A DNA stretch of 64,000 nt from an uncultured virus (IMG/VR IMGVR_UViG_3300044612_003086) (taxonomy: Duplodnaviria > Heunggongvirae > Uroviricota > Caudoviricetes). How positions within the stretch are numbered: the first letter of the stretch is position 1; every line of letters begins with the position of its first letter. The position numbers and the translations under genes are program-made. The stretch is from the IMG/VR virus record IMGVR_UViG_3300044612_003086, positions 62,001-126,000 of that record; one strand, written 5' to 3'. Shown piece by piece: positions 3,288 through 38,467 of this stretch. Below the pieces are notes generated by a model. That model had not been told where the DNA came from. It was given only the letters and a program-made list of their open reading frames with translations, and did not search any database.

Positions 3288-3792
3288 CGTTGTTATCCTC
3301 CAATTGGCGCAAAATATTCATTGCGTTCCAGGCGTCGTCGCGCTGTTGCAGCGATTTAAATGAATAAATATCCCTCTCAGACTTTACCATTCCTCCGCAG
3401 CAACTAGTTTGAACTTGAACAACATCAGTCTTTGTGTTTAAAAACTCCTGAATGCGGTCAGATTTTTGTTTAAGCGATTTTTGTTTTTTACCCAATTTTG
3501 AAACAACATTTAGACCGTCAAGCATTTTTTTGTCTATTGGCTTAGTTTTTAAAATAAATGTGTCGTACCATGAACCCTTGGTTGGATTTTGTGGTGAATC
3601 CCAAAGAAATCGTAAAAATCTTGACGAGCGGTTCTTTCTGACGCCGATTGCTTTTGCTGCAAAAGAGAAAAAGTACACGAATACGGCACTTCCGTCCGGA
3701 CGAACAACTGCACCATCTTTGGAATTTTTATTCGCGTCGATTATGTAATAAATACGGTCTTGGCCTACTGAACCAGCCAATACAGCTTTCAT
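3280..3792 (-). CDS. Hypothetical protein
   Basis: 170-aa ORF overlapping both neighbours; GGAG upstream. Confidence 0.75.
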   Translation of the reverse strand: MKAVLAGSVGQDRIYYIIDANKNSKDGAVVRPDGSAVFVYFFSFAAKAIGVRKNRSSRFLRFLWDSPQNPTKGSWYDTFILKTKPIDKKMLDGLNVVSKLGKKQKSLKQKSDRIQEFLNTKTDVVQVQTSCCGGMVKSERDIYSFKSLQQRDDAWNAMNILRQLEDNNDV

Positions 3793-6700
3793 AGCATTGC
3801 TCCGCTTCTAGTCACAAGGCTAGGACTTTTCTCTTTTCTCATCTCTTCAAGAAGCTTTTTGGCGTTTTCTGCAATCTCGCGCATTATTTTTTCCCTAAGG
3901 ACTGTCTCTATGTCGTCGGAGCGCTTTGCTGCTGCACTATAGCTCCTGGCATCAAAAAGATTAATTCCTTCTGGGTGAGCTATCCCTACATTATCAAAAC
4001 CAAGTTTTTTATATTCATCTTGTATTTTTTTTGCAGCTCTATAGTTTCTTAATTTTTGCATGCTTTGCGTATTCATTTTGCTTCCAGAGTTAATTGAGTA
4101 AAAATACTCAATCTCTTCTTGTGAGAATCCTGCCGAACGAAGCCGCTCAGCAATCGAGCGATTATTGACTACGTCAGAAATATCTTCTTTGCCAGAATTT
4201 TCAGATAGTCGGGAGAATGGGTAGTTGATTTTCTCAACTTCATCCTTATCAAAACCGCCAAGAATTTGTGCTTCGAATACATCCCTGTCCACCCCTTGAC
4301 CCAAGCTGCCAGGAGTTGGGAATTTGCCATCTCTATCTCTTCCACTATTTACGGAAGAGAAATCATCCGACATGCCAGCACCGAGAAGATTTAACGTTGA
4401 TACTAGATTTCTGCTTCTCGAACCTGGGCTGCTACCACCGATATAAGCATCAACGATGTCATCACGGTTCATTGAGTTTAATGCAACCGGTCTGTGGCCG
4501 GTGCTTAACGAATCACCCTTACCATATGCAACTCTGTTCGATACATTTGGCTTGAGTACAACTTCTATGTCGCCGAATGCGGTAAGTCCATCACCGACAA
4601 TATCTTCGTCCATGATTTCAAAATTTGCATCCATGTCAATATTGCCTGAATTGTTTTGCAATACTTGATTTTGTTTTGCCTTTTTATATGAATTGTGAAC
4701 AAGATATCCACTTACTGGCCTCAATTCATTTGGAATATCAGAAGATAGACCGATTGATGATTGATAGTCTTTGGCAAAATTAATTGCGGACATTCCGATT
4801 CTCTGCGAGGAAGTGGCGTCAGTATCTCCGTCCGACATTTTCCCTGTTAGGACCTGCCTGCGCGTCCTTGACAAAACCCCACGCGTACGATTGTTATTGC
4901 GTGTTTCTGAAACATTCTTCATAAATGCCCTAAACCCATCGGCAAATGAGTTTTGTAGTTTTTTTCTGTTACTCACTGGTTTTCTTGGTCCTGAGTAATC
5001 GCCAAGTTTTTCCATCGCGCGCATGGCTGTGTTTTTGTCTATCGCTCCACTTCTTTGGAGCTCCCTGACAGCGACAAGAGCCAGGTCTTGATTTCCAGCA
5101 GCAGCAATTTGGTTTGCCACCTTTGCTATATCTTCTGATGTCCCACCGTTTCCAAAGACGCTCATTGCCGCAATCGCCTGGACCATGTCTCCGCGCTCGG
5201 ATTTTTCTACTCCGGCTTTTGTTAGCGCGCTAACTGCTCTTGCATTTGCATTTCTATCGTTTCTAGCTCGGTTCGCGGCACTTGTCATGTCTCTTCCAGA
5301 GCTGAACCATGTCCTTCGCGCAGCTGCCCTACCTGTGATTTCATCAGAATCGTCTGGTAGGACTATTCTGCGATTGGAACGCAACGACTGTCTTGTGGTG
5401 ACTGCTTTTTTGTAGTCCGGACGTGCTGTGTATCCGACGGCACCAACCTTGATGAAGTCACCTCGCTCATAGAGCTCGTCGGCCATGTCTGAAATATTCG
5501 TCTTTAGGTCTTCTGCAACTTTCGCAATTTCCGAGTCGCTGATTTCAGCAATATCTCCCTTTTGCCAAGCATTTTCTGCACCAAGTCTTGCTTCTTTGAT
5601 TCCATATACTTCCTGAAAAGCTCTGCCAAGTGTAAGGCCCTCAACGATGTCGGTTTGCACTTCGTTAACATTTAGTGGAACCTGCAATTCATCACCTAAG
5701 CCAAGATTCGCTACGTTTATTCCTGCCCATCTGTGATGTCCATCCAAAATGTATTTATCCATTGTTGCGAGTATCGGCGAACTGAACCACTGCTTATTGA
5801 TTTCTTCAAGGAAGCGCCGTCTGAACTCATCGGACTTTCTATCAAGACCTTCTTGCTCTAGTTGGTCTGCGATTTCAAGTGCTTTTTTGGTTATTCCATC
5901 TGCCATGCCAGACACCTTTGATGCGACAAGCTGCTGCTGCGACGGAGCATACTCGTTTGCGGGGACTGTTTTTTTACGTACGGATGGACCAGTAGACGGG
6001 TCTTCTGGTGTAAGTGTTTCATTTAGGAATTGAATGAATTCACCCTCAAGATTCACCTCGGTGTTATTCCAATCCGTGTTCGAGTAGAACCAATTAAGTT
6101 CATCCTCTGACATTGGGTTCGATGATGGTTTGTTTTTCATTGGATGACGTTTTTTTAGGGATGCGTATCTTTCACTATCCTCAGTAGACAGTCCAGATGC
6201 AGGTTCCCATTTCCCATCGGCTTTACCATTTTTTAACATCCGTATGGCAATTGTGTTTGCGCCTTTTGTTCTTCCGTTTGTCTGGGGCATCTTTTCTCTA
6301 TCTATGCCGATATGGCCAGAACACAGCAGATTTTGCATTGCATCATAAAGCCCACATAGGTCAGCCTGGTAGCTGTCGACATAGTCTTTTTTCATTTTGT
6401 TTACAAAATCTTTTGATGAGATATCGATGCCTGGATTGTTTGAAAGCACATCAGCTTCGTATGCTTTCTTGAAGTTCAACCATCTTTCGTTATTCTGCTC
6501 AATATGGGTCAAGGCGCTTTTCTGCACTGCCTTCTCTAGCTTTGCCTGAGCGCTAGCGGTAAGTGTTAGGTCTGCATCTTTTACAATCACGTGATGGCCG
6601 AGTGACATAAGCGCCAACGCTGTCGGTACGTCTTCGGCAATGTATGTATTTCTGTGATTTGCGCTAATTGCCTTCCTTGTTGAGCGGACCAGTGATTTAC

Positions 6701-9700
6701 CAAAAACCTTTGATATCTCGTCAGTAGTCATGTCATCGACGTTTTTTCCACCAGCAACAACTTTGTCGAAAATGTCTGCCGCTTTTGCGGCTACCTCATC
6801 TTCCAGTTTCGCCCTACTTTCTAATTCCTCTACCGAGCTGATACGTCCACTAGACAGACGTCCGCGCCTGTCGTTTGGTGCCATTCTTGAAAGTCGTTCT
6901 GTTCTTCTTGAGGTGGATGGAGCACCAGGACGAACTCCGCCAGAACGAACAACCCCATTTTCCGACAACGAACTAATATCTTCGTCACGCATTCTCACTC
7001 GAACTCGTCTGTCGAAAGAACTGTGCATTTTAAATGCAGCATTTTCAATCAACTGTGCTATCTGTTCATCTGAGTACCTTCGAAGAGCTTCTGCAACATT
7101 TGAGTCGAGCATGTCTGATGCAATGTCGTCATACTCTTTTGAACCATTACCATTGAGGATTGAGCGCAGCTCACGCATATCAGACGAAAGCTGCTTTCTC
7201 CGCGAAGACCGTCTTTCCTCTCTGGAGAGAGTTGGTCCAAAATGTGTAGACCCAGAAGAAAGTCGTCTTGATGGGGCTTCGCCGAAGGTTGACCCAAAAT
7301 CTGCAACTGAATCAATTATCTCAGCGCTTGTCTCGTCTATATCTGCAGATTCTCTTTCTGTTGAGTCTGGCCTCGATATGCCGAGTTTGCTTCTTCTTAT
7401 TATTTCTTTATCGGCAACTTCTCTAATTTTCTTAGAGTTTCCCTGTCGCCATATGGCGTCATCGGTTCCAGAGCTGATTCCGTCAACAAGGGCATCAAGT
7501 ACATCAACGGTGTCTTTCTGTCTTACAATTTCAGCTCTTATCGTTCCATCTTTGTCGCGACTAATGATTCTCAGTTTCCCTGGAGGTGCGACGAACTTTT
7601 GCTCATCATCTTTTTCGGCATTTGGAAAGACTCCGCGATTTCCTTCTGCAACACTAATGATTATTTTCCTCTTTACGCGGCCCGTTTCCTTATCTGTCCC
7701 CCGAGGTGATGATGTCGGTTTAGAGCGAGATGTGAGTACACGTCCAGAAATGAAATTATCTACATTTATTTCATCCCCAACCTTTTTCCCCTTTACTTCT
7801 ACTGCTGGGAAGTCGGATACAACCTCAAATTCAAATGGCGAATCTATCGACGACGAATCAATTGCTTCCATTGTTGGGATGAGTATGTTGCGCACCTGTT
7901 CAGACAGCGAACCCTCGTCCTTGCGCCTCGGGTCTACGGCAAGGCCAAGACGGTTGAGGCGAGCATTTCTTGCATTCATCGCCCTACCTACAACAGTTTG
8001 CTTTTCCGGAGTTAACATCTGCGCTATTTCTGGGGCTACGAAATCATCCATCTCTCGGATTGCAGCAGCTTGTTCTTTGGTTATCTTTCGACGCAGGCGC
8101 GCTTTCTCTCGTTTCGCATTGTCTATAGCTTCTTTTTGCGATTTAAATTTCTTTATTTTCTTAGGTTTTGGTTTGAGTAATTCATCTACCTTGCCATTAA
8201 ACTCCCTACCGGCCCTTGCTGTTGCACGCGAATCACCACTCTCTGCAATTCGTGAAATGTATTCAGAACGGAGAATTGAGCGCTCCTCCATTAATTCTTG
8301 AACTTCCGGGTCGTCTTCTAGCCTGTCTTTAACCAGGACGTCAATATCAGCGGCACGGCGAATCAGTTGATTTTCTGATTTTGTTTTTGCTGAAGATGTT
8401 ATGTCATCAATTCTTTTTGCTTTAGCAAATGCTTTTATTTCTTCGTCATCCACCATTCCTGCATCACGTCTTGTTTTTTCGACTACCCTGTCGAATCTCG
8501 ATGCCTCACCCTTTGCTCCAACTCCGAATTTTTTCCTCCACTCAGAACGCGAATCAGAGTACATTTTCTCGTAGTAGTCAAGTATTTTTTGACCTTCTTC
8601 AATTTTCTTGCTGAGGTCAGCCACTTTCTCTGTTCGCTCTGTTATTGATTCCTCTGTTGCATCTTCTGGTAGTTCAGAAAGCCCATTGAGCTCATTCGTA
8701 AAATTATCCAGTTGTGCGCGTATGTCTCTTCTTTGGGCATCAACCAGTGCAGCTTGTTGGAACATCTCTTCTTCATCGAGTTCCGAATAGAATTTTTTAA
8801 ATTCTTTAAGTTTTTCCCGTCTTTCCTCTATTGTTCGTTTTTCAATGTCTCCGGACATTTCATCGATTTCTTCATCGGAAAGGCGGTCTGCAGAAGAGCT
8901 GGAAGTCGGCCTGAATGTAGTACTTTCCAGTATTGCTCGTTCTTCTGCATCAATATCTGCGCGCTCGGCAGAAAGCCTGCTTCGCTCAACGTCATCCATC
9001 CACTCCAATGCTGCGTCTACGTCATCTCCGAAAATAAGTCCCTGTTCGCGTAGTGCATGTAGTTCTGCACCAACCTCAAGACCCCATATTTCGCTGCCTT
9101 CTGTATATTCGGTTGGGTACTTGCCAGCAAGAAATGCAGCCACTTCACTGCGCTTTAATGCATCTGACATATTTTTCAGGTCCAAGCCATCATTGGAATC
9201 CATCATCAAATCCATAACATCACCGCTTGTTAGATTTGTCAACAATCCTCCACGCTCTTCATCGAAATCAACAGTGACAATACGGTTTCCGACAAACGTC
9301 ATCGCACCAGTTCTCTTGTCTTGTTTGTACTGAGGGATTTCAATTTTTCCGCCGTTATCGATAGCTTTGCGAAGAATTTTTTGAATGAATGCCTGGCTTT
9401 GAATTCCGTGTGAAAACTCATGAAAAGCAATATGTTTAGTAAATGACCTCGGCCCGTCTACAAGCCCTGCCATGTGGCGTGCTGCATATTCGGAATTTAT
9501 TAAGAAGTCTGCTACTGCGCTCTTCGCCTCTGAGTCACTGACAACCCCAACAGCAGATACGGCAAGTCGTTCATCTGCACGCATGTCTGGCAGCATCGAT
9601 TCCTGGTTTGTCATGATGCGCTCTAGGTTTACGTGCATTACTCCACGTATTCCACCAGCACCTGGCCTCATGCTTCCGTGAACCGCAGTTCCTGCTTCGT

Positions 9701-11165
9701 CATTAGTGAAGAAATTGTATTCAATTCGGTCGAAAAATTTAGCGGTTCCTGGTTTTGTTTTGTACAGATGCAAAGCTGTTTCAAAATATGCTCGCTCTGT
9801 TTCGTAATATCTCTTAATGTCAGCTTCAATTAAGCGCTCTTGTTCTGGCTTGGTCAGCGCTTTCCAGTTAGCCACCTTCTGCAGGCGGGCTGTTATGTAC
9901 CTGCGAACCTCGTCTGGTCTCATTCTGGACATATCGCCCATTCCAGAAACATTCGATACGTTTAGGTCCCAACCATCTCTGCCGCCCGTTGCGACGAACA
10001 GCTCATTTAGCTTTTCTACTGCCTCGAATACGTCGGCATTTACTGCTCGTGCAGCATCGCTTCTGTCAACACCCAATTCGCTATACAGTTGCGAAACGCT
10101 TTCATCGAACTTGATAGCCGCATCCTGGGCATTTATCAGTCCGTTTCTAAAAAGTCGCTGACCTGGCTCAACGTCAACCGTACGCCAATCTGGGGAATCT
10201 AGTCTTTCTCCAGTTATCTCGTCGTAATACGGGCTTCTTGCCATTCTGACCGGAGCCCACGGAACATTTGAATCCCACTCATTGTTTTTTATAAAGTTAA
10301 GTAGTGTTCTTACTCCGTTTGTAAAACCACCAAGCTCCCCTGATTCCTGCATCTCTTTTGCCTTACGCGCAGCAAAGCGAGAGAATCTCGACGCGCTAAA
10401 ACCAAAACAGTTGGTTCCGAACATGTCCGTAAATTGGTTTGCAGCAGGGGTTCCCGGAGGGCATCTGAATTTGTTTAGCTCGTCACGGACTACGCCGAAT
10501 CGAGCAGCAGCTCGCGCAATGAGATTTCCACCAGGAACACGAGAAGAGAGAGGTCTGCCAGGGAGGCGTTTTTTTTCTAGTCCGTTTTCTTTTTCTGTTA
10601 GTTCACGTAGTTTGGCTCGTCGCTCATCGAATGACATGCCTGCAGTAATAGAGAATCCATCTATTTCTTCTGCCGATTCCTGGATTACATCATCTGTTTT
10701 TGCATTTACTTTAAATTTTGTAAGTTTTATTTGCGGTTTGCGATTAAGCTCAAAAAGCATTTCGTCGAGATTTTTGAAATTCCCAGTTGTCGGCTCAATC
10801 CACCCAATGTTTGGCATGGTGTCCATGCCATTTTTGCTTTCGTATGATGGACTAAGTACAAACCTTTTTCCTGGCTCCCACTTCGCTGCAGTTTCCCATC
10901 TGTGACCAAATTCGTCGGACTGAACGCCAGGTCTAGTGTCTCCAGTGAATTCACGTTTCTTATTGTCGGTATCTTCGTATGTTTGGCGATTTTCGCCAAG
11001 AGCTTTTACTGCGATATCGGCAATAAGTCTTTCCTGTTTGGCTGATTCAATAACTGAAGCCTTGAAAGTAAGAGCCTTTTTATCAACGTCACCAATAGTG
11101 CGCGCAGGCGCCAGCATGCGACGCGATACAACTACTCGTTCCTTGTCGGTGAAATCACCCGTCAT
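3789..11165 (-). CDS. Giant polyvalent protein: zincin HExxH domain, degenerate VIP2-like ADP-ribosyltransferase, ParB/Srx-like domain, DUF3626-like ART domain
   Basis: 2458-aa ORF; FHEFSH...EVGAE; GDEINVDNFIS...SVAEGNRG...DEQKFVAPPG; PSQQQL...ILDGHHRWAG; RPVSGY...FGDIEVVLK...GDSL...FEAQILGG. Confidence 0.75.
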   Translation of the reverse strand: MTGDFTDKERVVVSRRMLAPARTIGDVDKKALTFKASVIESAKQERLIADIAVKALGENRQTYEDTDNKKREFTGDTRPGVQSDEFGHRWETAAKWEPGKRFVLSPSYESKNGMDTMPNIGWIEPTTGNFKNLDEMLFELNRKPQIKLTKFKVNAKTDDVIQESAEEIDGFSITAGMSFDERRAKLRELTEKENGLEKKRLPGRPLSSRVPGGNLIARAAARFGVVRDELNKFRCPPGTPAANQFTDMFGTNCFGFSASRFSRFAARKAKEMQESGELGGFTNGVRTLLNFIKNNEWDSNVPWAPVRMARSPYYDEITGERLDSPDWRTVDVEPGQRLFRNGLINAQDAAIKFDESVSQLYSELGVDRSDAARAVNADVFEAVEKLNELFVATGGRDGWDLNVSNVSGMGDMSRMRPDEVRRYITARLQKVANWKALTKPEQERLIEADIKRYYETERAYFETALHLYKTKPGTAKFFDRIEYNFFTNDEAGTAVHGSMRPGAGGIRGVMHVNLERIMTNQESMLPDMRADERLAVSAVGVVSDSEAKSAVADFLINSEYAARHMAGLVDGPRSFTKHIAFHEFSHGIQSQAFIQKILRKAIDNGGKIEIPQYKQDKRTGAMTFVGNRIVTVDFDEERGGLLTNLTSGDVMDLMMDSNDGLDLKNMSDALKRSEVAAFLAGKYPTEYTEGSEIWGLEVGAELHALREQGLIFGDDVDAALEWMDDVERSRLSAERADIDAEERAILESTTFRPTSSSSADRLSDEEIDEMSGDIEKRTIEERREKLKEFKKFYSELDEEEMFQQAALVDAQRRDIRAQLDNFTNELNGLSELPEDATEESITERTEKVADLSKKIEEGQKILDYYEKMYSDSRSEWRKKFGVGAKGEASRFDRVVEKTRRDAGMVDDEEIKAFAKAKRIDDITSSAKTKSENQLIRRAADIDVLVKDRLEDDPEVQELMEERSILRSEYISRIAESGDSRATARAGREFNGKVDELLKPKPKKIKKFKSQKEAIDNAKREKARLRRKITKEQAAAIREMDDFVAPEIAQMLTPEKQTVVGRAMNARNARLNRLGLAVDPRRKDEGSLSEQVRNILIPTMEAIDSSSIDSPFEFEVVSDFPAVEVKGKKVGDEINVDNFISGRVLTSRSKPTSSPRGTDKETGRVKRKIIISVAEGNRGVFPNAEKDDEQKFVAPPGKLRIISRDKDGTIRAEIVRQKDTVDVLDALVDGISSGTDDAIWRQGNSKKIREVADKEIIRRSKLGISRPDSTERESADIDETSAEIIDSVADFGSTFGEAPSRRLSSGSTHFGPTLSREERRSSRRKQLSSDMRELRSILNGNGSKEYDDIASDMLDSNVAEALRRYSDEQIAQLIENAAFKMHSSFDRRVRVRMRDEDISSLSENGVVRSGGVRPGAPSTSRRTERLSRMAPNDRRGRLSSGRISSVEELESRAKLEDEVAAKAADIFDKVVAGGKNVDDMTTDEISKVFGKSLVRSTRKAISANHRNTYIAEDVPTALALMSLGHHVIVKDADLTLTASAQAKLEKAVQKSALTHIEQNNERWLNFKKAYEADVLSNNPGIDISSKDFVNKMKKDYVDSYQADLCGLYDAMQNLLCSGHIGIDREKMPQTNGRTKGANTIAIRMLKNGKADGKWEPASGLSTEDSERYASLKKRHPMKNKPSSNPMSEDELNWFYSNTDWNNTEVNLEGEFIQFLNETLTPEDPSTGPSVRKKTVPANEYAPSQQQLVASKVSGMADGITKKALEIADQLEQEGLDRKSDEFRRRFLEEINKQWFSSPILATMDKYILDGHHRWAGINVANLGLGDELQVPLNVNEVQTDIVEGLTLGRAFQEVYGIKEARLGAENAWQKGDIAEISDSEIAKVAEDLKTNISDMADELYERGDFIKVGAVGYTARPDYKKAVTTRQSLRSNRRIVLPDDSDEITGRAAARRTWFSSGRDMTSAANRARNDRNANARAVSALTKAGVEKSERGDMVQAIAAMSVFGNGGTSEDIAKVANQIAAAGNQDLALVAVRELQRSGAIDKNTAMRAMEKLGDYSGPRKPVSNRKKLQNSFADGFRAFMKNVSETRNNNRTRGVLSRTRRQVLTGKMSDGDTDATSSQRIGMSAINFAKDYQSSIGLSSDIPNELRPVSGYLVHNSYKKAKQNQVLQNNSGNIDMDANFEIMDEDIVGDGLTAFGDIEVVLKPNVSNRVAYGKGDSLSTGHRPVALNSMNRDDIVDAYIGGSSPGSRSRNLVSTLNLLGAGMSDDFSSVNSGRDRDGKFPTPGSLGQGVDRDVFEAQILGGFDKDEVEKINYPFSRLSENSGKEDISDVVNNRSIAERLRSAGFSQEEIEYFYSINSGSKMNTQSMQKLRNYRAAKKIQDEYKKLGFDNVGIAHPEGINLFDARSYSAAAKRSDDIETVLREKIMREIAENAKKLLEEMRKEKSPSLVTRSGAML

Positions 11166-11182
11166 TGCGGGTTGCCTTTTTG

Positions 11183-12805: not shown

Positions 12806-12867
12806 AGAACTCCTGTTTGTGCAGGAAAATGACCGGTCTGGACATTAACCATTAAATTGTGCTCTAA

Positions 12868-12873
12868 ATTATA
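12868..12873 (-). promoter_or_regulatory. Candidate -10 element (TATAAT) upstream of the 540-aa gene
   Basis: Perfect TATAAT on the minus strand in the AT-rich 12806-12947 gap; GGAG RBS before the ATG. Confidence 0.45.
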
Positions 12874-12947
12874 ACGTATCATGTCGCAGCAGCGTGAATT
12901 AGCAACATTAACTAATTTCTGCAAATTTATTTACTACTGCAATATTC

Positions 12948-15900: not shown

Positions 15901-18900
15901 TCGGCAGGCAATCCAACGATTTTGTCTGGATGCGCTCCGATGAATTCCAAGGCAGCTGTAAGGGTGTTTTTGTTTGAATAAGAAATATATGCCCACGTAC
16001 CATCTGCGCTTGTTGGTATCTGACGGTAGAGGATTCCTTCCGATTCTGGAACGATGTAACCACGAGCCTTGTCCAGTAGCTCATTTCTCTCTTTTTCTGG
16101 CATATCTGCCAGTGACTGTCCGTCTGGACCAGAAATTCCGTATTTCTTTTGTATTGAATCAAGTTTCTTACGCAAATCATTTCCGGTGAGTGTTCCAAGA
16201 TTGAAGTCATGAGAAACCACATCCTGAAGTCGGCCAAACAACTTGTAGTCCGCAGAAACCTCATCAATCCCATTCTGCCTGTCGGTCATGTTTCCACGAC
16301 CAAGCATCAAGTTTCCAAGGAACGCAACTGTCTTTCCGTATCTGAATGAGTCAGTCAACGTCAAGTTGAAATCTGGATTGAGTCGAGCGAATGAGTCAGA
16401 TGAACCACGGAATCCATAAATTGATTGCCGTGGGTCACCGACCATGACTATTGCAAGATTATTATTCGCAATATTGTCTTCAATCACCTTTTGGAGAACT
16501 GGGTTTACGTCCTGAGCTTCGTCAAAGAAGAAAGTCGAAATGGGCTTATCTTCCGTTGCATATCGGCGACGCAATCCGGCGCGTGCTCCACCACCTGTGT
16601 AGACATAATCCACACCATCAACTTGGACTATTGAGCCTGGGTCAAGTTTTTTGTCCTGTGCTCTTGCATCTTTCACTTTTCTTGTGCCGTGACCAACCAT
16701 TCCAGCGTCTGTACGCAGATTTGGTTTTTGCATAGCCCAAATCTTTACTTGCTGGTCGTAGTTGGGCAGCACATTGCTCTTCGGGTCGAGCGTGTCAGAC
16801 CACATTTTGAGTGCTAGGTCAACCCACTCTTGTGGTATCTGGTCGAATGCTGTTTCGGCAGGGTCGATTGGGTCGCCAGACTCGGCAAGTTGCTTATTTC
16901 TTTCAATTTCGTGTGGACGAAGCTTGAAATGTTTTTCACTAAGCGCATCATCATCACTCTGTGAATAACGAGTAAGGGCGTTGATGAGAACAAGACCATA
17001 ATCGTCAGCAGTCAGCTCCACCCCTTCGTGGGTAAGTCCGTCTGGGTATTTCGTGCCGAAATCGTAGTGTCTCGCTACGTCGCGACCACCGCTTTCTGTT
17101 TCAAACGAAACGTATCCCAAAGTTCTGAATCCAGCTTTTTTCAATCCTGTTGTATCGACAGTTTTTCCACCATATCCCTCTGCAGACGTTTGTCTTGTTG
17201 ATTTAGGGTTTGCTGATGAGTAGTACTCGTTGCCGGCGCCAATGCCTATCTTTTTTAGTTTCTCTTTGAACTCTGGAGAAATTCCTGGCCTGTCTTCGAG
17301 CAATAGGGACCAGTATGCCAATTGGTTAATCGAAGAGCTTCCTGTGTTGTCAGGCATTCTACGTGCTGCTTCTGCAGCATTTTTCTTATTGAATGTTATG
17401 TAATAAAACTGTGACTCCGGAGATTCCTTGGCCATACGAATAACAGATTGTTCAACTGTGGTGGTTTTACCTGCTCCGGCTCCTGCGCGAACAGCAGCCA
17501 ATCCACCTTCACCAGTTTTTGTGAAGTGTGCAACTGTATCCATAACGTCTTTTTGTTCATCAGTCGGCTCAAACTTCATTCCAAACATTTCCATGAACGA
17601 ACCCTCAGTTCGCTCAATCTTGCGCTTAGGGTCCTTGGCGCCAACAATTGGTCCGCGGCCAGAAGAAAGACGCTTGTTAATTTGGTTATACGTGTTGCCT
17701 TCTTCGTCCTTGATAACGAATCCGGTTATGCCGCTTGAAAGACGATTATTCTCGTAGTCCTCAAGGATAGTTTTTACTGCAGATGGACCTTGTCCACGAA
17801 CACGCACGCGTTGACGTACTTTGTTTTCTGGTGTTGGTGTGCCGACAACTGGCTTTTTCTTTGGAATTGGGATAGTGATTCGACCAACGATTGGCGCTTC
17901 AATTGTGTAGTCTTCTTTACCCTTGCGTTCGCTGTCTGGAACACCAGCGCGCTTGCGCAGCGTTGCTGACTTATTCATAATGTAGTCAACAGCCTGCTGT
18001 CCGCCTTCAATTGCACGACGGATTGAGCTTGGGTCGTCCTGCAGTGCTTTGCGCCAGAACGCTAGGTACTGAATATGGTCTTCGCGTATTTGAGGCTCTA
18101 CACCGAGGAATCCCATCGCAAATGAAGCACCGATTTCTGCGATGAGTTCTTCAAATGCGTATTTCTTTCTCTGTTCTGGGGTGCCCTTCATTCTGCCGCT
18201 TAGGTCTCTCTTTAGTCGCGATGGATGGGCTGTCCAGTGAATAATTTCATGCAGAACTGTTCCATAGAAAGCAATTGGTTCAATAAAGTTCTCAAATGGA
18301 GGAACATTTATCGTGTCGTCGTTTGGGTCGTAGAATGCGCTGACTCCCTGTTCCTTGTATCTAGGACCAATTTCTTTGATTACATTTTCAATGTCTTCAA
18401 GTCGTTGTGCCGCATCAAGTTTTTCTGTTTCTTTGACTTCGTAGACCCATGCTGGCAGTCCGTCCATTTGGTCGGCGTTGAATACTGTTTCAATTTTGAA
18501 ACCTTTTTCACCAGTACGAATTCCGTCATCATTTTTTATGTCAAACGGAACGAGGATATTGACACCAATTTCTCCTGGTTTTGGTTTTGCTTTCTTATTC
18601 AACTCACGCCACTGCGAACGTCCAGCCCAACGATTTGTTTTGTATTTGCGCTTTGATGCGACCTGGGAAAGAATCAATTGATTCATGCCTTGATAAATAC
18701 GATTTCTTCTTGTTGGATTTCGACCGTACAACTCTGGCGAGCGCCAAGGCACTTGCCACTGGCCAGCTTTGCTTGGGTCCTTTAATATCTCATCAAGCGC
18801 AGCAATAATTGCTTCACCCATTTGCTGGTACATGTCTTTAATACGAGCTGCATCTGCTTCTTGATTTTCATCTTTTCCAGATGACAGTGTCTGGCCATCC

Positions 18901-21812
18901 CTGTATTCCCAGAGTGGTCCTAAGTAGTCTTGCTTTTCACGACGAGTGCGCTTGTTTTCTGGCTTTTTTAGGAAATTCTCAAATCCACTAGAAAGTCTTG
19001 GCGCGCTCTCGGCAGCACGCGATGCACTGCCTCTTCGAATCTCGGACATGTATCTTTGTTCTGCCTGGCGCACCTCCGTTCTTGTTACACCAAGTTTTTT
19101 GGCCATATCCTCAATGGATACGCCATTCATACGCTCTTCGTAAATATCCTGGTCTGTATAGTCTTCTGGGTTCTTTTCTGGTGGAGCGATTTTCCCTCGT
19201 TTTGGACGTGGCATTTCTTCGCCGAGGAAATCTCTAATAATTCTGTCGTATGTATCAGTTCCGCTCTCATCGAATGGAAGGTTGTCGTCGCCGTAGGGAT
19301 TATCTGGGTCGAAATCGTCATCGAGCGCAGGAAGTCTTCCGGATGAGAGTTTTCTATCTGGCTTGTTTGGGCTTGCACCGTCGAACCCATATGAGTTCAT
19401 CCAGCGAGCAAGAGTCTCTTTATCGTTTGGGTCCCATGTTCCAGTTGACGGGCGACGCTCATAGACTTCGCTGCGTAGCGCACTATCAAGTCCTTTAAGA
19501 AACTGGCTCTCGCCGTCTTCGCCAACATAATTTTTATTCTTGTCCTTTTTGTCTTTTCCGGCAAAATACTTATTTGTTGCATCGAGGTATGTGCCTAGTG
19601 TGCGAACAAAATCGTAATACCACTCTTGATACGCCTGTCCGCTCTTTGCTTTTTCGTTGAATTTTGCTGGGCGCTTCTTATCGTCGCCTTGCCATGCTCT
19701 TCTTGCTTGGTTGTACCCAAGCTCGCGCCCTCTTAAGAACTCTGCGGAACGTGTATTGTCTGTTTGGTAGCGAGGCACTTCTTCCCAGCCGAAGCCCTTA
19801 TCAACCCATTCCTGTGCAGTCTTGTCAAATGCTTCTCGTCTTGCCTGTTCATCTGGTGCGACACCAAACTTACTCTCGGTTTCTTTTCCAAGACCGTGAC
19901 GTGAAGTATTAAATCGTGAGCGTTTCTCAGCTCCAGAAGAGAAGGGTTTTGACGGTGTTGCCGGTTTTGCATCTTGCACGCCGACGAAGCGGGGTCGTGT
20001 TGTTCCTTCATCTACCCAGCCATCGTTGTCGGGGTCGAAGTCGCTCCCCGTTGGTCGTCGATTTCCTGGTGTTCCGCCGGTTGGCATGTCAATGTCGCCA
20101 CGGCGATTTCTTCTGTCTCGACGGCCACCGATTGATGGTCTGTCAATGAGTCTGCTGCCAACGTAGCTTCCTAGTCTTCGGCCAATCGCTTTTGACTCAA
20201 ACTCAGAGCTATCTAGAAATTTTTTTTTTATGTTTTCCAGAGCGTTATCGACTGCTTCAATAAAATCTAAACTAACCCCGGATTTGAGAACGATTCCATC
20301 AATATCCACTTCTGCATCAACCATGTAGTAATCGAGAATTGGGTCAATTTCTTGCTTGACACGGAACGCGTCATTTGGGTGAAGCGGAATGCAGTATTGC
20401 TCATCGAATGAGTTGTCATCTTTGCCAAATTCAGAAAGTGATTTAAATTTGCTACGCTTCTTTTTTCTCTTACCTACCGCTCCGCGAAGCATGGCCATGA
20501 CAAACTCGCCAGGGTACTTAACTTCTAGGTCTTCAATAGCTTCATCGAAATTTGCGTCTTCTTCAATTTCGTATTCCTTTTTAGCAATTCCATCGACATT
20601 GACAACGCCTTTTGGAATTACTGCAAAACGACATTTGCCTTCTGGTTCGATGTCCATATCAACAATCTTGCATGACCCATCATTTTGGAAGAACACGCAA
20701 TTTGCACACTTGACCCCGATTGATGCGATGGGATTTTCTGAAGCCGGTTTATATCCAGCCCACACACCATCTTTGTCTTCGTTGAACTTGCCGTGGCGTT
20801 TTACAATTTTTAGCAAAGCGTCACGCAGGTCCGCTTCCTCTTTATCGAGGTTGTTCTTATCTATTGGCTTGTTATTGCCCTCTTCGTACTGAACTGCAGG
20901 GAGCGGAACAACAACAACACCCTCCATGCCTGGCTTGACAGCTATTGGCATTGATGGCATCTGCTGTGGGCGGACCATTCTTCTTGGCTCATTTGGCGGA
21001 ACCATCATTGGTGCTGTTTGTGGTGCGGACGGTCTCTGCATCACTATTTCTTCTGGCGGGCCGAACATCATTCGACCACCCGTTCGACTCCAGCCACACT
21101 TGAATCTCTTAACTGAACCGTCAGCCACACGACGAGCAAATGTCAGATTTTCGTCGTCCATTTCCATGAGCGATATTTTTGCGCCAAGCATTCCTGAGAG
21201 TTGCTTTTCAATTTCCAACTTGTTCGGCTTTTCATCATCCATCATCATTACGGAGCTATCTTCGCCGTATGGGTCATCTGTCTTCACGGAAATTGTGCCA
21301 GTCAGTTGATTGGCTCCATGAAGAACTGGAGACACTTCATAAAGCTCCAACTCGTAGATTACGTTTGCCTGAGACTTTTGGTCATACTGTGCGCGCAGGG
21401 TTTTATATCCAATCGACCATTCTTGTTCTTCTCCAAAGAAAGCAACCATCGTGAAAGCTTCGCGGCCCTTTTCTGACTGAAGATTAAATTGAACTTTTGC
21501 AAATAATCCGCCGATTCCAGCAATCTTCATTTTTAGTGGTAGGCGTGGGTCAGACGGTGGCACCTCGTAAATTTCGAGTACTTTGCCGATTGGGTCATTC
21601 CAGTTATGGCCCCACACAACACGCGGCTTGCGGCGCTGAAGACTCTTCGTAAAAGCACCACTTGCGCAAATATCACCAACAGAGTCTTTATTGCCGATTC
21701 CAGCTACAAAGCACTCAACAATTCCTTGCATCTCATCGAGATTGACGGAGCCGGCTTTCTGTGAAGCGGAGCCAAGGGATGTCGACTTGTATTCAAAGTG
21801 GTCAGTGGTCAT
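12948..21812 (-). CDS. HK97-family prohead protease fused to a polyvalent protein (HiPIP-like Cys domain, sigma70-r4-like HTH, ArdC-N ssDNA-binding + MPTase metallopeptidase, UvrD/SF1 helicase)
   Basis: 2954-aa ORF; DSVGD...GAF..WGHNW.DPIG...WSIGY...LYEVSPV..GAN (protease); W..PW...Y.GMN...VFNADQ (ArdC); AFY...LHEIIHWT...YAFEELIAE (MPTase); AGAGAGKTT, DEAQD, VGDPRQSIYGFRG, HAAKGLEFD, YVMMTRAK (helicase). Confidence 0.9.
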   Translation of the reverse strand: MTTDHFEYKSTSLGSASQKAGSVNLDEMQGIVECFVAGIGNKDSVGDICASGAFTKSLQRRKPRVVWGHNWNDPIGKVLEIYEVPPSDPRLPLKMKIAGIGGLFAKVQFNLQSEKGREAFTMVAFFGEEQEWSIGYKTLRAQYDQKSQANVIYELELYEVSPVLHGANQLTGTISVKTDDPYGEDSSVMMMDDEKPNKLEIEKQLSGMLGAKISLMEMDDENLTFARRVADGSVKRFKCGWSRTGGRMMFGPPEEIVMQRPSAPQTAPMMVPPNEPRRMVRPQQMPSMPIAVKPGMEGVVVVPLPAVQYEEGNNKPIDKNNLDKEEADLRDALLKIVKRHGKFNEDKDGVWAGYKPASENPIASIGVKCANCVFFQNDGSCKIVDMDIEPEGKCRFAVIPKGVVNVDGIAKKEYEIEEDANFDEAIEDLEVKYPGEFVMAMLRGAVGKRKKKRSKFKSLSEFGKDDNSFDEQYCIPLHPNDAFRVKQEIDPILDYYMVDAEVDIDGIVLKSGVSLDFIEAVDNALENIKKKFLDSSEFESKAIGRRLGSYVGSRLIDRPSIGGRRDRRNRRGDIDMPTGGTPGNRRPTGSDFDPDNDGWVDEGTTRPRFVGVQDAKPATPSKPFSSGAEKRSRFNTSRHGLGKETESKFGVAPDEQARREAFDKTAQEWVDKGFGWEEVPRYQTDNTRSAEFLRGRELGYNQARRAWQGDDKKRPAKFNEKAKSGQAYQEWYYDFVRTLGTYLDATNKYFAGKDKKDKNKNYVGEDGESQFLKGLDSALRSEVYERRPSTGTWDPNDKETLARWMNSYGFDGASPNKPDRKLSSGRLPALDDDFDPDNPYGDDNLPFDESGTDTYDRIIRDFLGEEMPRPKRGKIAPPEKNPEDYTDQDIYEERMNGVSIEDMAKKLGVTRTEVRQAEQRYMSEIRRGSASRAAESAPRLSSGFENFLKKPENKRTRREKQDYLGPLWEYRDGQTLSSGKDENQEADAARIKDMYQQMGEAIIAALDEILKDPSKAGQWQVPWRSPELYGRNPTRRNRIYQGMNQLILSQVASKRKYKTNRWAGRSQWRELNKKAKPKPGEIGVNILVPFDIKNDDGIRTGEKGFKIETVFNADQMDGLPAWVYEVKETEKLDAAQRLEDIENVIKEIGPRYKEQGVSAFYDPNDDTINVPPFENFIEPIAFYGTVLHEIIHWTAHPSRLKRDLSGRMKGTPEQRKKYAFEELIAEIGASFAMGFLGVEPQIREDHIQYLAFWRKALQDDPSSIRRAIEGGQQAVDYIMNKSATLRKRAGVPDSERKGKEDYTIEAPIVGRITIPIPKKKPVVGTPTPENKVRQRVRVRGQGPSAVKTILEDYENNRLSSGITGFVIKDEEGNTYNQINKRLSSGRGPIVGAKDPKRKIERTEGSFMEMFGMKFEPTDEQKDVMDTVAHFTKTGEGGLAAVRAGAGAGKTTTVEQSVIRMAKESPESQFYYITFNKKNAAEAARRMPDNTGSSSINQLAYWSLLLEDRPGISPEFKEKLKKIGIGAGNEYYSSANPKSTRQTSAEGYGGKTVDTTGLKKAGFRTLGYVSFETESGGRDVARHYDFGTKYPDGLTHEGVELTADDYGLVLINALTRYSQSDDDALSEKHFKLRPHEIERNKQLAESGDPIDPAETAFDQIPQEWVDLALKMWSDTLDPKSNVLPNYDQQVKIWAMQKPNLRTDAGMVGHGTRKVKDARAQDKKLDPGSIVQVDGVDYVYTGGGARAGLRRRYATEDKPISTFFFDEAQDVNPVLQKVIEDNIANNNLAIVMVGDPRQSIYGFRGSSDSFARLNPDFNLTLTDSFRYGKTVAFLGNLMLGRGNMTDRQNGIDEVSADYKLFGRLQDVVSHDFNLGTLTGNDLRKKLDSIQKKYGISGPDGQSLADMPEKERNELLDKARGYIVPESEGILYRQIPTSADGTWAYISYSNKNTLTAALEFIGAHPDKIVGLPAEKYRDMVEFLRHYQFVLRPVGTRPRESKIIGNAWTMEEIRKRAGQKSSYGQLGSMLKLLQVRDAEGNQLSPLDWLNRLLGRRDPQTGEVLTRARIREIEEPLDVDPFKNIDGSSSTVSGEELIALGKQKAGKGGGGAKGAYKMNRDKRFNIIPNPTGQTPSREVFWKLDTESLGADGKWENGVIISGEGIIDVYQFRDAAGKIQYTGDKNGEKPMMRRRIEKMIKDLNLEGKVTIEKQYVPRKAGSSNAPAYDAVRIKGDNPEETGLLLSLVGRMITDSANEPEVDASFLTTHAAKGLEFDNVVAGDDFFQPKFEDDGSILPGNDISREMENLIYVMMTRAKKRIQLSEATSWIIDPKKNPKGFEYIEKFLTEEQQAPSGFWNPFGDGEQVFPDGAREILSSGRVNSVPETAVPGTGTNRSARRARLRGGDVERQATTETSAPETPGVQAPERTAAVGGPRSVNSSNRADRKARRMSSGSTYADNINATNLAAIRGSKTGESFAFARRFWDGFRKRGITLDTSSKSGTVKERRRQINEGLDKAAAAMKRRPQVTIGRVSGNENLSNPDADTWMLPVKSLKESIRIPTEFDVVRNPDNTIADVKWTKSEPISNTDLSRLLNLSPEDAKRISDDDSGISHNAVRFLVAELGNRPEFGGWRLFSPVTSDEPGVEKMSSAQRFAENLGRANMRDRFIIETFGKDAYPFWADREENQIISSDEYSTLGEVDPVAKFRATGRFTPNPEDADGEASAEADLIYEGMPDFVPEAPAPTVNETNPAGAKTSRRDFKLDNLIENLGLDRDEWMAQLRERMKRSFGMDDVGLTNPKDRKSWESDGVPVAAIQEMIRTGMIENAESVWPENGQKLDGELRASKANVAEAMVEFISNTQKGSGGNTKRNKEYILGTSNLSVLLNNAAKTRGKTFSKIKGDEPRYSSNELQDVVNRFNEIFGTSHTIEDIFSKEQLENARKRLQEEGRTMFGKSGTKE

Positions 21813-32042: not shown

Positions 32043-32051
32043 TAGTTAATA

Positions 32052-33194: not shown

Positions 33195-33741
33195 TATTGA
33201 ATATGTAGATATGGACTTGCTCGTGGTTCCAAGTTGGCGCGCAACATATGTCCTCAGACCAGAACTTCTTATCATTTCTGGCTCACTTATGGAGTTTGGT
33301 TTCATTCAACCAATTCATGTAAGGCGCTCGTCTAATGAAATAATTGATGGTTCTGAAAGATTTCTTCTTGCAAGCAATATTGACGATATATATGAACAAC
33401 TTGACGGAAAGATTCCAGTTGTTTTTCATGACGTTAACCAAATAGATGCAATGATTATGCATTTGCGCCTTAATCGTGGGCGCTCAACTGTTGTGGCTGC
33501 AAAAACATCGGAAATAATTAGAAAAGCAAAACGCTCCGGAGACTACAGAGATAGCGACTTTAATGAGTTACTTTCAATGAGAAACGAAGAGCTTTCATTA
33601 ATGCTTGACGGAAGTGTCCTAAAAGCAAGGAAAATAAAAGAACATAATTACGCCAAAGCATGGGTTCCAATAGAGGCTCCATCGTCTCTTCCGGTATCGG
33701 ACAAGATGGTTATTGAATCTCCGCCAAATCCTGACAGATAA
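33184..33741 (+). CDS. ParB-like protein (IbrB-like)
   Basis: SL.EFGFIQPI.V....EIIDG..R...LNRGR...AWVP; follows the IbrA-like gene. Confidence 0.75.
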   Translation: MAINIEYVDMDLLVVPSWRATYVLRPELLIISGSLMEFGFIQPIHVRRSSNEIIDGSERFLLASNIDDIYEQLDGKIPVVFHDVNQIDAMIMHLRLNRGRSTVVAAKTSEIIRKAKRSGDYRDSDFNELLSMRNEELSLMLDGSVLKARKIKEHNYAKAWVPIEAPSSLPVSDKMVIESPPNPDR

Positions 33742-38453: not shown

Positions 38454-38467
38454 CGGAGGAATAAACA

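What the first reader, a model, noticed from the sequence alone, without database searches (positions are those of the whole stretch)
5295..19943. Eleven [LFM]SSG motifs bracket the enzymatic domains of two giant head-module proteins: candidate virion polyprotein-processing system
Seen: the 2954-aa protein has FSSG (19932-43), LSSG (19338-49, 18984-95, 18876-87, 17730-41, 17658-69, 14694-705) and MSSG (14466-77). The 2458-aa protein has LSSG (7251-62, 6846-57) and FSSG (5295-306). The motif is often preceded by R/K. The codons differ (TTC TCT TCT GGA; CTC TCA TCC GGA; ATG AGT AGC GGG), so conservation is at the protein level. The motifs lie in linkers and enclose the HTH (19338-18995), ArdC+MPTase (18876-17741), UvrD helicase (17658-14705) and ParB (6846-5306) modules. 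With assumed typical residue frequencies, well under one copy is expected in ~5,400 aa (rough estimate). Inference: these are cleavage sites that release individual effectors from polyproteins loaded into the head and injected with the DNA. The protease could be the fused prohead protease or one of the two zincins. I know of no description of this motif.
Basis: partly seen in the sequence, partly recalled or inferred. Interest (0 to 1): 0.9.

Follow-up and report, generated by a model that had tools for sequence, protein, structure and literature searches.

The report
Linker cut-site code in phage polyproteins
Three giant multi-enzyme proteins of an uncultured lake phage are punctuated by a short Leu-Ser-Ser-Gly signal in the flexible joints between their domains, which most likely marks where the phage's own capsid protease cuts them into separate enzymes, although no cut has been measured.

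Summary
All 11 [LFM]SSG motifs are at the stated coordinates (8 in the 2954-aa protein, 3 in the 2458-aa protein). About 0.3 are expected, and 0 of 20,000 shuffles reached 11.

A third giant protein outside the window carries 7 more. The three giants hold 18 motifs against 0.41 expected. The other 156 ORFs hold 4 against 2.07 expected.

The motif is conserved in position down to about 32% identity. It is nearly absent from folded domains and lies in order-poor flanks. It also marks the ends of swapped cassettes.

Relatives carry other repeated motifs instead (G[FL]AS, G[ML]RS, SSRS, I[ST]GxM). Most share a hydrophobic-x-Ser core.

The best reading is that these are processing sites of head-packaged polyproteins. 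The most likely enzyme is the S78 prohead protease fused to the front of the largest protein. This is inferred, not shown. The zincin domains remain a rival enzyme, and a non-proteolytic docking or modification motif is also possible.

The ParB assignment was not confirmed, and the HTH assignment is weak.

Earlier notes of this scan describe the same theme on other phage DNA, including relatives of this protein.

The parts
12948..21812 (-). Giant protein A (2954 aa, P0001). Order: S78 prohead protease, unknown region with a Cys cluster, shared module, then cargo cassettes (unknown 628-821, HTH-like 826-939, ArdC-N+MPTase, UvrD-like helicase, unknown C-terminal 505 aa).
   Evidence: ORF; translation; Pfam and PHROG hits.
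21291..21722 (-). S78 (HK97-type) prohead serine protease domain, residues 31-174 of giant A.
   Evidence: PF04586 scores 38 bits against a cut-off of 21; phrog_80 E 1e-25. H69, S133 and H165 are invariant in 20 sequences.
20220..20229 (-). Run of ten A's in the coding strand (residues 528-531). The -1 frame stops after 3 codons and the +1 frame after 1 codon. A slip here would give a short form of about 531 aa that ends just before the shared module and the cargo.
   Evidence: The run is kept at the same place in the relative with 80% identity (L012), but is absent in the GFAS- and SSRS-class relatives.
19959..20204 (-). 82-aa module (residues 537-618). It is 72% identical to residues 22-101 of the third giant protein and lies just upstream of the first motif in both. 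Candidate head-targeting propeptide.
19932..19943 (-). FSSG, residue 624: first site of giant A, 6 aa after the module.
   Evidence: Most homologues have their first site at residues 557-706.
19338..19349 (-). LSSG, residue 822.
   Evidence: Aligned [LFM]SSG in 59 of 87 homologues.
18984..18995 (-). LSSG, residue 940.
   Evidence: Aligned in 22 of 87 homologues.
18876..18887 (-). LSSG, residue 976, 16 aa upstream of ArdC-N.
   Evidence: Aligned in 64 of 87 homologues. L197, S198 and S199 are nearly invariant in alignment A2.
18012..18839 (-). ArdC-N plus MPTase-PolyVal zincin (HEIIH at residue 1188), residues 992-1267.
   Evidence: PF08401 E 1e-12 and PF18818 E 2e-33; HExxH.
17730..17741 (-). 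LSSG, residue 1358.
   Evidence: Aligned in 28 of 87 homologues.
17658..17669 (-). LSSG, residue 1382. Together with site 1358 it delimits a 20-aa spacer.
   Evidence: Aligned in 49 of 87 homologues.
14856..17561 (-). UvrD-like SF1 helicase, residues 1418-2319.
   Evidence: PF00580, PF13245, PF13361 and PF13538.
14694..14705 (-). LSSG, residue 2370.
   Evidence: The region aligns poorly: 2 of 87 homologues.
14466..14477 (-). MSSG, residue 2446.
   Evidence: The region aligns poorly: 0 of 87 at the exact column.
3789..11165 (-). Giant protein B (2458 aa, P0002). It has no Pfam or PHROG family. Its first ~1300 aa carry no conserved motif (the one ISSG at residue 1230 is not conserved) and include an HExxH (HEFSH at residue 582, nt 9408-9422).
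   Evidence: 45 homologues were found.
7251..7262 (-). LSSG, residue 1302 of giant B.
   Evidence: Aligned [LFM]SSG in 31 of 35 non-redundant homologues.
6846..6857 (-). LSSG, residue 1437 of giant B.
   Evidence: Aligned in 29 of 35 homologues.
5295..5306 (-). FSSG, residue 1954 of giant B.
   Evidence: Aligned in 13 of 35 homologues at the exact column. Others lie nearby in a gappy region.
7467..7478 (-). ISSG, residue 1230 of giant B. Probably not a site.
   Evidence: 0 of 35 homologues have a motif there, and the columns are poorly conserved.
21919..23985 (-). Portal protein, directly upstream of giant A. It places the giants in the head module.
   Evidence: phrog_2662 E 7e-67.

Best explanation
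The [LFM]SSG motifs are recognition sites for proteolytic processing. They sit in the flexible joints of three giant polyvalent proteins that the phage loads into its head.

The most likely enzyme is the phage's own S78 (HK97-type, assemblin-fold) prohead serine protease, which forms the N-terminal domain of giant A.

Proposed course of events:
1. Giant A enters the prohead through its protease and scaffold-like front end.
2. The third giant enters through an N-terminal copy of the same 82-aa module.
3. During head maturation the protease cuts at each hydrophobic-x-Ser site. This releases ArdC/MPTase, the helicase, the exonuclease and the unknown cassettes as separate proteins, plus short spacer peptides.
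4. The released proteins leave the head with the DNA.

Shown here: the motif, its enrichment, its conservation, its linker position, its cassette-boundary position and its clade-specific variants.

Inferred: cleavage itself, the enzyme, the register of the cut (after the second Ser by analogy with other assemblin-fold proteases), packaging and injection.
For: 1. Enrichment. The two window proteins hold 11 copies against 0.30 expected, and 0 of 20,000 shuffles reach 11. The three giants hold 18 against 0.41; the rest of the genome holds 4 against 2.07. The top 16 hits of a site matrix over the whole genome all lie in the three giants.

2. Family-wide presence. P0004-P0090 (87 proteins) carry 2-21 copies each against 0.09-0.27 expected. 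The logo from 901 sites is [RKS]-[L 0.76/F 0.12]-S-S-G-[RAK], with unconserved polar flanks.

3. Positional conservation inside diverged linkers.

4. Exclusion from folded domains. There are 0 motifs in 22,448 aa of ArdC-MPTase and 2 in 49,650 aa of helicase, against 3.0 per 1000 aa overall. The median position is 13 aa upstream of ArdC-N. Flanks contain 0.190 order-promoting residues against 0.278 at random positions (962 sites vs 3,720 positions; Mann-Whitney p 8e-201).

5. Cassette boundaries. Of 417 insertions of 120 aa or more, 164 have both ends within 30 aa of a motif, against 19.3 under random placement.

6. Clade-specific variants. Among 181 S78-bearing proteins of 900 aa or more, 137 carry at least 4 copies of one linker motif: LSSG 93, G[LF]AS 20, G[ML]RS 11, [GS]SRS 6, G[LMF]SS 4, and three further types once each (examples). 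Most share hydrophobic-x-Ser. The classes cluster on the protease tree (11 changes against 24.4 in shuffles).

7. Enzyme. 24 of 138 giants with at least 4 motifs have no HExxH at all, and 23 of these 24 carry the S78 domain. So a zincin in cis is not needed.

8. Fit to known specificities. The hydrophobic-variable-small pattern matches the cleavage rules reported for other assemblin-fold proteases. T4 gp21 cuts at I/L-x-E (passage in 10.64898/2026.03.04.709575). Pseudorabies virus assemblin is reported to cut at YLQA-T and VQA-S, within a protease-scaffold fusion (PMC4498786).

9. Capsid protein. The major capsid protein (outside the window) has L-[ST]-S-[RHS] at the end of its variable delta-domain junction in 40 of 52 distinct N-termini.

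10. Precedent. SPN3US gp245 removes propeptides of 20-254 aa from head and ejection proteins (PMC10052503).
Against: - No cleavage product has been observed.
- The capsid junction reads LSSR, not LSSG. Across motif classes it does not clearly follow the giants' motif. All classes share an Arg 4-6 residues before the conserved SIG, which could be the real, class-independent capsid site.
- The S78 domain is 53-92% identical to the query across all motif classes, and few of its columns separate the classes.
- Arg-containing motifs go with Glu/Asp at protease column 56 (12 of 14, against 3 of 118) and with Gln at column 140 (13 of 14, against 0 of 118). However, this rests on about 3 changes on the tree, only 1 on a well-supported branch, so it is not significant.
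- No motif lies between the protease domain and about residue 620, so the protease would stay attached to a 620-aa unit.
- Each of this phage's three giants has its own HExxH, so a zincin remains possible.
- The portal's near-match (FSSF) is not conserved.
Confidence: 0.5

Rival explanations
1. The motifs are cleavage sites, but the enzyme is a zincin: the MPTase-PolyVal domain of giant A or the HExxH domains of giants B and C. It would act in cis or in trans, in the head or only after injection into the host. This is what Iyer et al. proposed for polyvalent proteins.
For: - Each of the three giants has one HExxH: HEIIH at 1188, HEFSH at 582 and HEWGH at 1835.
- The MPTase is a strong Pfam hit (E 2e-33).
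- Iyer et al. 2017 predict autoprocessing by MPTase (PMC5512222, passages).
Against: - 24 of 138 motif-rich giants have no HExxH.
- Motif-rich proteins such as P0081-83 and P0098-P0106 have S78 as their only peptidase family on record.
- A zincin encoded in trans elsewhere in those genomes could not be excluded, because the contigs are partial.
Confidence: 0.15
2. The motif is not cut. It is a short linear motif read by another partner. It could be a docking peptide that pins each joint to the capsid interior, the portal or a chaperone. It could also be a modification site, for example a Ser phosphorylation site in a basic context.
For: - The motif is short, lies in disordered flanks and keeps an invariant Ser. 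In the I[ST]GxM class Ser and Thr interchange.
- A basic residue precedes the motif in 50% of sites.
- Nothing here shows a cut.
Against: - No kinase or other candidate reader was identified in the window.
- The motifs sit exactly at cassette boundaries and come in close pairs that leave 20-72-aa spacers (sites 940/976, 1358/1382 and 2370/2446). This suits processing better than docking.
- The architecture of a protease fused in front of the chain, and the fit to the specificity of assemblin-fold proteases, both point to cleavage.
Confidence: 0.2
3. The motifs are cut by a host protease after injection, and the motif class tracks the host lineage rather than a phage enzyme.
For: - Motif classes switch between phages whose capsid proteins are still 70-75% identical. 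A host change could explain this.
Against: - I know of no host protease with such 5-6-residue specificity (recalled; not tested).
- The classes cluster on the phage protease tree.
- The hosts are unknown, so this was not testable.
Confidence: 0.07
4. The pattern is a compositional or DNA-level repeat artefact with no function.
For: None was found.
Against: - 0 of 20,000 shuffles reach the observed count.
- Codons differ, including the TCN and AGY serine families.
- The motifs are conserved in aligned columns down to about 32% identity.
Confidence: 0.01

Closest known systems
Polyvalent proteins of phages and conjugative elements (Iyer, Burroughs, Anand, de Souza, Aravind 2017, PMC5512222)
   Same: These are giant multi-domain proteins that combine ArdC-N, MPTase, helicase and nuclease domains. 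They are thought to travel with the DNA and are predicted to be processed by embedded peptidases, with an explicit analogy to RNA-virus polyproteins (passages).
   Different: The passages I read name no cleavage motif. [quoted passage not shown] Here the protease is at the N terminus, and explicit, conserved, clade-variable sites are defined. I did not read the paper's supplementary files.
T4 gp21 with capsid-targeted internal proteins, and SPN3US/phiKZ prohead proteases with ejection proteins
   Same: A prohead protease removes targeting propeptides from proteins packed in the head and later ejected. The T4 rule is I/L-x-E. SPN3US gp245 makes 14 cuts in 9 proteins, with propeptides of 20-254 aa (PMC10052503, passages).
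   Different: The protease family differs (S78, not the T4 or phiKZ type). P1 would be Ser rather than Glu. There are many internal sites per chain (up to 21) that would release whole enzymes, rather than the removal of one N-terminal propeptide. The protease is itself part of the substrate chain.
Herpesvirus pUL26 (assemblin-linker-scaffold) with R and M sites
   Same: An N-terminal assemblin-fold serine protease is fused to downstream assembly protein. Cuts occur at hydrophobic-x-small sites (YLQA-T and VQA-S in pseudorabies virus; PMC4498786, passage). A shorter in-frame product sets the stoichiometry.
   Different: In herpesviruses only two sites are cut and the downstream part is scaffold, not enzymes. 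Here the possible short form would arise at an A10 run, not from an internal promoter.
MARTX multi-effector toxins processed by their cysteine protease domain (recalled from my own knowledge, not from a call)
   Same: A giant chain of effector domains is released by cuts after Leu in unstructured inter-domain linkers.
   Different: No C80 cysteine protease domain was found here (Pfam). Delivery is by phage head and tail, not by secretion.

Membership tests
Polyvalent proteins (Iyer et al. 2017) | Two or more unrelated effector-type domains in one polypeptide of a phage or conjugative element, typically including ArdC-N and/or MPTase | tested here: met
   PF08401, PF18818, PF00580, PF13361 and PF04586 all occur in one 2954-aa ORF.
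Polyvalent proteins (Iyer et al. 2017) | Virion-associated genomic context | tested here: met
   The gene lies directly downstream of the portal, in the head module. The capsid protein lies further downstream.
Polyvalent proteins (Iyer et al. 2017) | Transfer into the host together with the DNA | not testable with these tools
   This needs virion proteomics and infection assays.
S78 / HK97-type prohead protease | Profile match above the curated threshold | tested here: met
   PF04586 scores 38.0 bits against a cut-off of 21; phrog_80 E 1e-25.
S78 / HK97-type prohead protease | Conserved catalytic His and Ser | tested here: met
   H69, S133 and H165 are invariant in 20 aligned sequences. Their catalytic roles are assigned from recalled knowledge of the family, not tested.
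S78 / HK97-type prohead protease | The only head protease of the phage, encoded between portal and capsid genes | tested here: inconclusive
   The position is met. I did not search the whole genome for a second protease.
Prohead-protease-processed head cargo (T4 IP/Alt type, SPN3US E proteins) | N-terminal targeting propeptide followed by a protease site | tested here: inconclusive
   An 82-aa module sits at the N terminus of the third giant, 7 aa before its first LSSG. The same module sits 6 aa before the first site of giant A. Giant B lacks the module. Its targeting function is inferred.
Prohead-protease-processed head cargo (T4 IP/Alt type, SPN3US E proteins) | The same motif marks the capsid protein's maturation site | tested here: inconclusive
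   L-[ST]-S-[RHS] occurs at the delta-domain junction in 40 of 52 distinct N-termini. The Gly is replaced, and the other motif classes show no clear match.
Prohead-protease-processed head cargo (T4 IP/Alt type, SPN3US E proteins) | Cleavage products demonstrated | not testable with these tools
   No cultured relative was found. The best S78 match in 50,697 phage records is 45% identical.
MARTX-type autoprocessing toxins | Embedded C80 cysteine protease domain | tested here: not met
   There is no such Pfam hit at E <= 0.01 in either giant.

The most novel reading that the evidence does not exclude
A large group of uncultured freshwater phages uses true polyproteins. An assemblin-fold S78 prohead protease at the front of a giant head-module gene reads a clade-specific hydrophobic-x-Ser 'linker code' (LSSG, GFAS, GLAS, GMRS, SSRS and others). 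It cuts up to about 20 sites per chain, in cis and in trans, and so turns three genes into some twenty injected enzymes and spacer peptides. An 82-aa propeptide targets additional chains to the head. An A10 slip site sets the ratio of protease-scaffold to protease-cargo, much as in Gag/Gag-Pol or herpesvirus UL26/UL26.5.
Probability: 0.35. Interest if true: 0.8.

Novelty: new variant of a known kind. Interest (0 to 1): 0.62.

Why it matters
If the sites are real, they turn a published prediction (that polyvalent phage proteins are processed like viral polyproteins) into something directly testable. They name the residues to mutate and the peptides to look for in proteomes.

They would also give the first extended specificity rule for an HK97-type (S78) prohead protease.

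They would allow the true protein products of hundreds of giant "hypothetical" phage genes to be annotated. Each cassette between two sites would be one product.

They would explain how such genes evolve, by swapping cassettes at a fixed joint.

A short, portable, protease-specific linker together with a head-targeting module would also be useful for loading foreign proteins into phage capsids.

Tried and rejected
- **Structure prediction of residues 780-1420.** Linker location therefore rests on proxies.
- **DNA search against cultured phages.** The megablast of giant A found no match.
- **Protein search against cultured phages.** Only single-domain hits for giant A. The nearest capsid proteins are in Brevibacterium and Gordonia phages at 46-49% identity, and the nearest S78 domains at 45% or less. 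Their head modules have no such giant. I did not analyse their proteins.
- **Capsid-protein covariation across motif classes.** Ambiguous.
- **Portal near-match FSSF.** Not conserved in 5 relatives, so it was dropped.
- **ISSG at residue 1230 of giant B.** Not conserved, so it was dropped.
- **ParB in giant B.** No Pfam, PDB-sequence or PHROG support. The profile-profile probability against the window's own ParB-like proteins is below 1%. Only a conserved DGHHRW stretch is visible.
- **Protease column covariation with Arg-containing motifs.** The raw association is strong, but there are only 1-3 independent events.
- **P0106-type (GGMRS) loci.** None in viral contigs. GLAS-type loci held no capsid gene.
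- **The 540-aa ORF between the giants.** The Atlas look-up gave only a PepSY family in 14-17% of members of neighbouring clusters.
- **Reads laid on the A10 run.** The RNA-library contigs do not cover it, so there is no information on slippage.
- **Literature.** Searches for LSSG with prohead protease, for polyprotein, prohead protease and ejection proteins, for giant protein, ArdC and prohead protease, and for capsid maturation protease and cleavage motif found no description of this motif in the held library.
Full report
**Setting.** The window is part of a 133,891-bp virus record of a contractile-tailed phage. Sheath, tube, portal and large terminase are recognised by PHROGs. On the minus strand the head module runs in this order:
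- portal (21919-23985);
- a 2954-aa protein, giant A (P0001, 12948-21812);
- a 540-aa ORF;
- a 2458-aa protein, giant B (P0002, 3789-11165);
- three smaller ORFs;
- just outside the window, an HK97-type major capsid protein of 449 aa (P0130).

Giant A carries an S78 prohead protease (residues 31-174), ArdC-N (992-1108), MPTase-PolyVal (1140-1267) and a UvrD-like helicase (1418-2319), all by Pfam. Giant B matches no Pfam or PHROG family.

**Observation.**
- Composition predicts 0.30 copies. None of 20,000 shuffles reached 11, and the maximum was 4.
- Every SSG in both proteins follows L, F, M or I (12 of 12). The twelfth is an ISSG at residue 1230 of giant B.
- Codons differ between copies and mix the two serine codon families.
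- In a six-frame scan, 12 of the 26 [LFMIV]SSG hits in the window lie in these two frames.
- A third giant, giant C (P0131, 2205 aa), lies outside the window at genome position 37854-44471. It has an RNase T-type exonuclease, an HExxH and 7 LSSG.
- Genome-wide, the three giants hold 18 motifs against 0.41 expected. The other 156 ORFs hold 4 against 2.07 expected.
- A position matrix built from homologues puts its 16 best genome hits in the three giants.

**Homologues.** A search with giant A returned 116 proteins.
- P0004-P0090 carry 2-21 [LFM]SSG each, against 0.09-0.27 expected.
- The 901 SSG sites in these 87 proteins give the logo [R 0.33/K 0.17/S 0.16]-[L 0.76/F 0.12/M 0.03]-S-S-G-[R 0.24/A 0.19/K 0.18]. 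Beyond that the flanks are unconserved and polar.
- In giant A, aligned motifs occur at site 976 in 64 of 87 homologues, 822 in 59, 1382 in 49, 1358 in 28 and 940 in 22. Sites 624, 2370 and 2446 fall in poorly aligned stretches (7, 2 and 0 of 87). Most homologues nevertheless have a first site at residues 557-706.
- In giant B, among 35 non-redundant homologues down to about 32% identity, site 1302 is aligned in 31, site 1437 in 29 and site 1954 in 13. The motif columns stand out as conservation peaks in weak flanks. ISSG 1230 is not conserved (0 of 35) and is probably not a site.

**Linker position.**
- Motif density in the 87 homologues is 3.0 per 1000 aa (847 motifs in 282,230 aa).
- There are 0 motifs in 22,448 aa aligned to ArdC-MPTase and 2 in 49,650 aa aligned to the helicase.
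- There are 3 in 15,750 aa of protease. These appear to be the VSSG in the conserved DSVGDIVSSGAF stretch near residue 50 (P0014, P0026, P0028).
- The median motif lies 13 aa upstream of ArdC-N.
- The ±15-residue flanks of 962 sites contain 0.190 order-promoting residues, against 0.278 at 3,720 random positions. 68% of sites lie below the background 25th percentile.
- Structure prediction, the direct test, was not available.

**Cassettes.** The pieces between motifs have the size of whole proteins. Residues 980-1357 are a complete ArdC and 1386-2369 a complete helicase. Close pairs of sites leave spacers of 32, 20 and 72 aa.

Between homologues I found 417 insertions of at least 120 aa, after removing near-duplicates. 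In 164 of them both ends lie within 30 aa of a motif, against 19.3 under random placement. In 336 at least one end does, against 154.9. These insertions are not all independent events.

**Motif classes.** More distant protease-fused giants lack LSSG and repeat another motif instead:
- D-G-F-A-S-R-G;
- G-L-A-S-[ST];
- G-G-M-R-S;
- R-G-M-[RA]-S;
- S-S-R-S-[KT].

Giants next to capsid genes that are 70-76% identical to this phage's repeat I-[ST]-G-x-M-[SGA].

An exhaustive search with the protease domain found 4,293 proteins at E <= 0.001. Among the 181 S78-bearing proteins of 900 aa or more that I held, 137 carry at least 4 copies of one class:
- LSSG: 93;
- G[LF]AS: 20;
- G[ML]RS: 11;
- [GS]SRS: 6;
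- G[LMF]SS: 4;
- GMAS, AGM[AS] and [ST]GxM: 1 each;
- no such motif: 44.

Most classes share a hydrophobic residue, a variable residue and a Ser. The classes cluster on the protease tree (a quick tree of 102 rows; 11 changes against 24.4 in shuffles). An SSRS clade is nested inside the LSSG side.

**Which enzyme.**
- Zincin in cis: of 138 giants with at least 4 motifs, 24 have no HExxH, and 23 of those 24 carry S78. A zincin in cis is therefore dispensable. Giants B and C have no protease domain, so whatever acts on them must be able to act in trans.
- Fit to known rules: the hydrophobic-variable-small pattern fits what is reported for other assemblin-fold proteases. T4 gp21 cuts at I/L-x-E (passage). 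Pseudorabies assemblin is reported to cut at YLQA-T and VQA-S, within a protease-scaffold fusion (passage). By that analogy the cut would follow the second Ser. Registers one or two residues earlier are not excluded.
- Weaker support from protease columns: in the first comparison (102 rows), three of the six protease columns that separate the LSSG class from three or more other classes lie within 9 residues of the conserved Ser133. In the larger set of 181, Arg-containing motifs go with Glu/Asp at column 56 (12 of 14, against 3 of 118) and with Gln at column 140 (13 of 14, against 0 of 118). The tree needs only 3 changes for this, 1 on a starred branch, so the association is not significant.
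- Against S78: the domain is 53-92% identical to the query across all classes. The capsid junction gives no clean covariation. It reads Q-L-[ST]-S-[RH]-E in 40 of 52 distinct N-termini. It reads AGYAIPTRQLESIG in the GFAS class, GASAQRTQFKSIG in the SSRS class and AAR[ED][FM]G[FY]KSIG in the I[ST]GxM class. All of these share an Arg that could be the true capsid site.
- Each giant of this phage also has its own HExxH.

**Targeting module and A10 run.**
- Residues 537-618 of giant A are 72% identical to residues 22-101 of giant C. The first motif follows 6 and 7 aa later, respectively.
- This looks like a removable head-targeting propeptide of the kind described for T4 and SPN3US (passages). 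That role is inferred.
- Following a lead from earlier notes of this scan on relatives, I found a run of ten A's at 20220-20229, just before this module. The -1 frame stops after 3 codons and the +1 frame after 1 codon.
- The run is kept in the relative with 80% identity but is absent in the GFAS and SSRS classes.
- One of those earlier notes is marked 'part of it fell' at a later check. I could not see which part.
- Contigs from RNA libraries do not cover the run.

**Comparison with what is known.**
- Giant A meets the definition of a polyvalent protein. Its processing by embedded peptidases was predicted in 2017 with an analogy to RNA-virus polyproteins. The passages I read give no site, and they place the assemblin-like peptidase at the C terminus.
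- Processing of head cargo by prohead proteases is established for T4 and SPN3US.
- What is new here is an explicit, conserved, clade-variable site code for an S78-type system with many internal sites per chain.
- Four literature searches found no description of it. The held library lacks most subscription journals.
- Earlier notes of this scan report the same theme with other motifs in other phages, and 'repeated junction peptides' in relatives of this very protein.

**Verdict.** The polyprotein reading is well supported by sequence statistics and comparative evidence, but it is not demonstrated. I put processing by some protease at about 0.7 and processing by the S78 protease at about 0.5.

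Noticed in passing
window 20220-20229 (minus strand, giant A residues 528-531): A run of ten A's with near-immediate stops in both alternative frames, just upstream of the shared module. It could yield a short protease-scaffold form by slippage. It is conserved in the relative with 80% identity (L012) but absent in the GFAS and SSRS classes.
   Followed up: partly
outside the window: genome C1:37854-44471 (= L014:1854-8471, minus strand): A third giant protein (2205 aa) with 7 LSSG, an RNase T-type exonuclease (residues 632-816), a ParB C-terminal-like PHROG hit and an HExxH at residue 1835. It lies next to a primase/helicase gene, not in the head module.
   Followed up: partly
window 19959-20204 (giant A residues 537-618): The shared module contains FDPDNDGWVDEG, which resembles a DxDxDG calcium-binding loop. 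The resemblance is recalled, not tested.
   Followed up: no
window 54950-60133 (minus strand), plus 53804-54928 (plus strand): A cluster of about six neighbouring ORFs that all hit 2OG-Fe(II) oxygenase PHROGs (phrog_61, phrog_81).
   Followed up: no
window 31194-33741 (plus strand): A ParB-like protein, a PAPS-reductase-like protein and a second ParB-like protein in a row.
   Followed up: no
window 11183-12805 (minus strand): A 540-aa ORF between the two giants with no Pfam or PHROG family. Its nearest Atlas clusters are viral, and 14-17% of their members carry a PepSY domain.
   Followed up: partly
window 39817-44529 (plus strand), residue 36: The 1570-aa tail protein (probable tape measure) has a near-match, RRFASGR, close to its N terminus. 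It ranks 24th in the site-matrix scan.
   Followed up: no
window 19700-20700: Near-identical DNA occurs in contigs of 17 lake or freshwater metagenome runs from many studies. Short pieces also occur in three metatranscriptome libraries. The phage is widespread in lakes.
   Followed up: partly
outside the window: genome C1:58093-59508 (L015:8093-9508, minus strand): A 471-aa protein with DUF6321 next to the capsid gene. The same DUF is fused behind the protease in some distant giants (P0108-P0112).
   Followed up: no
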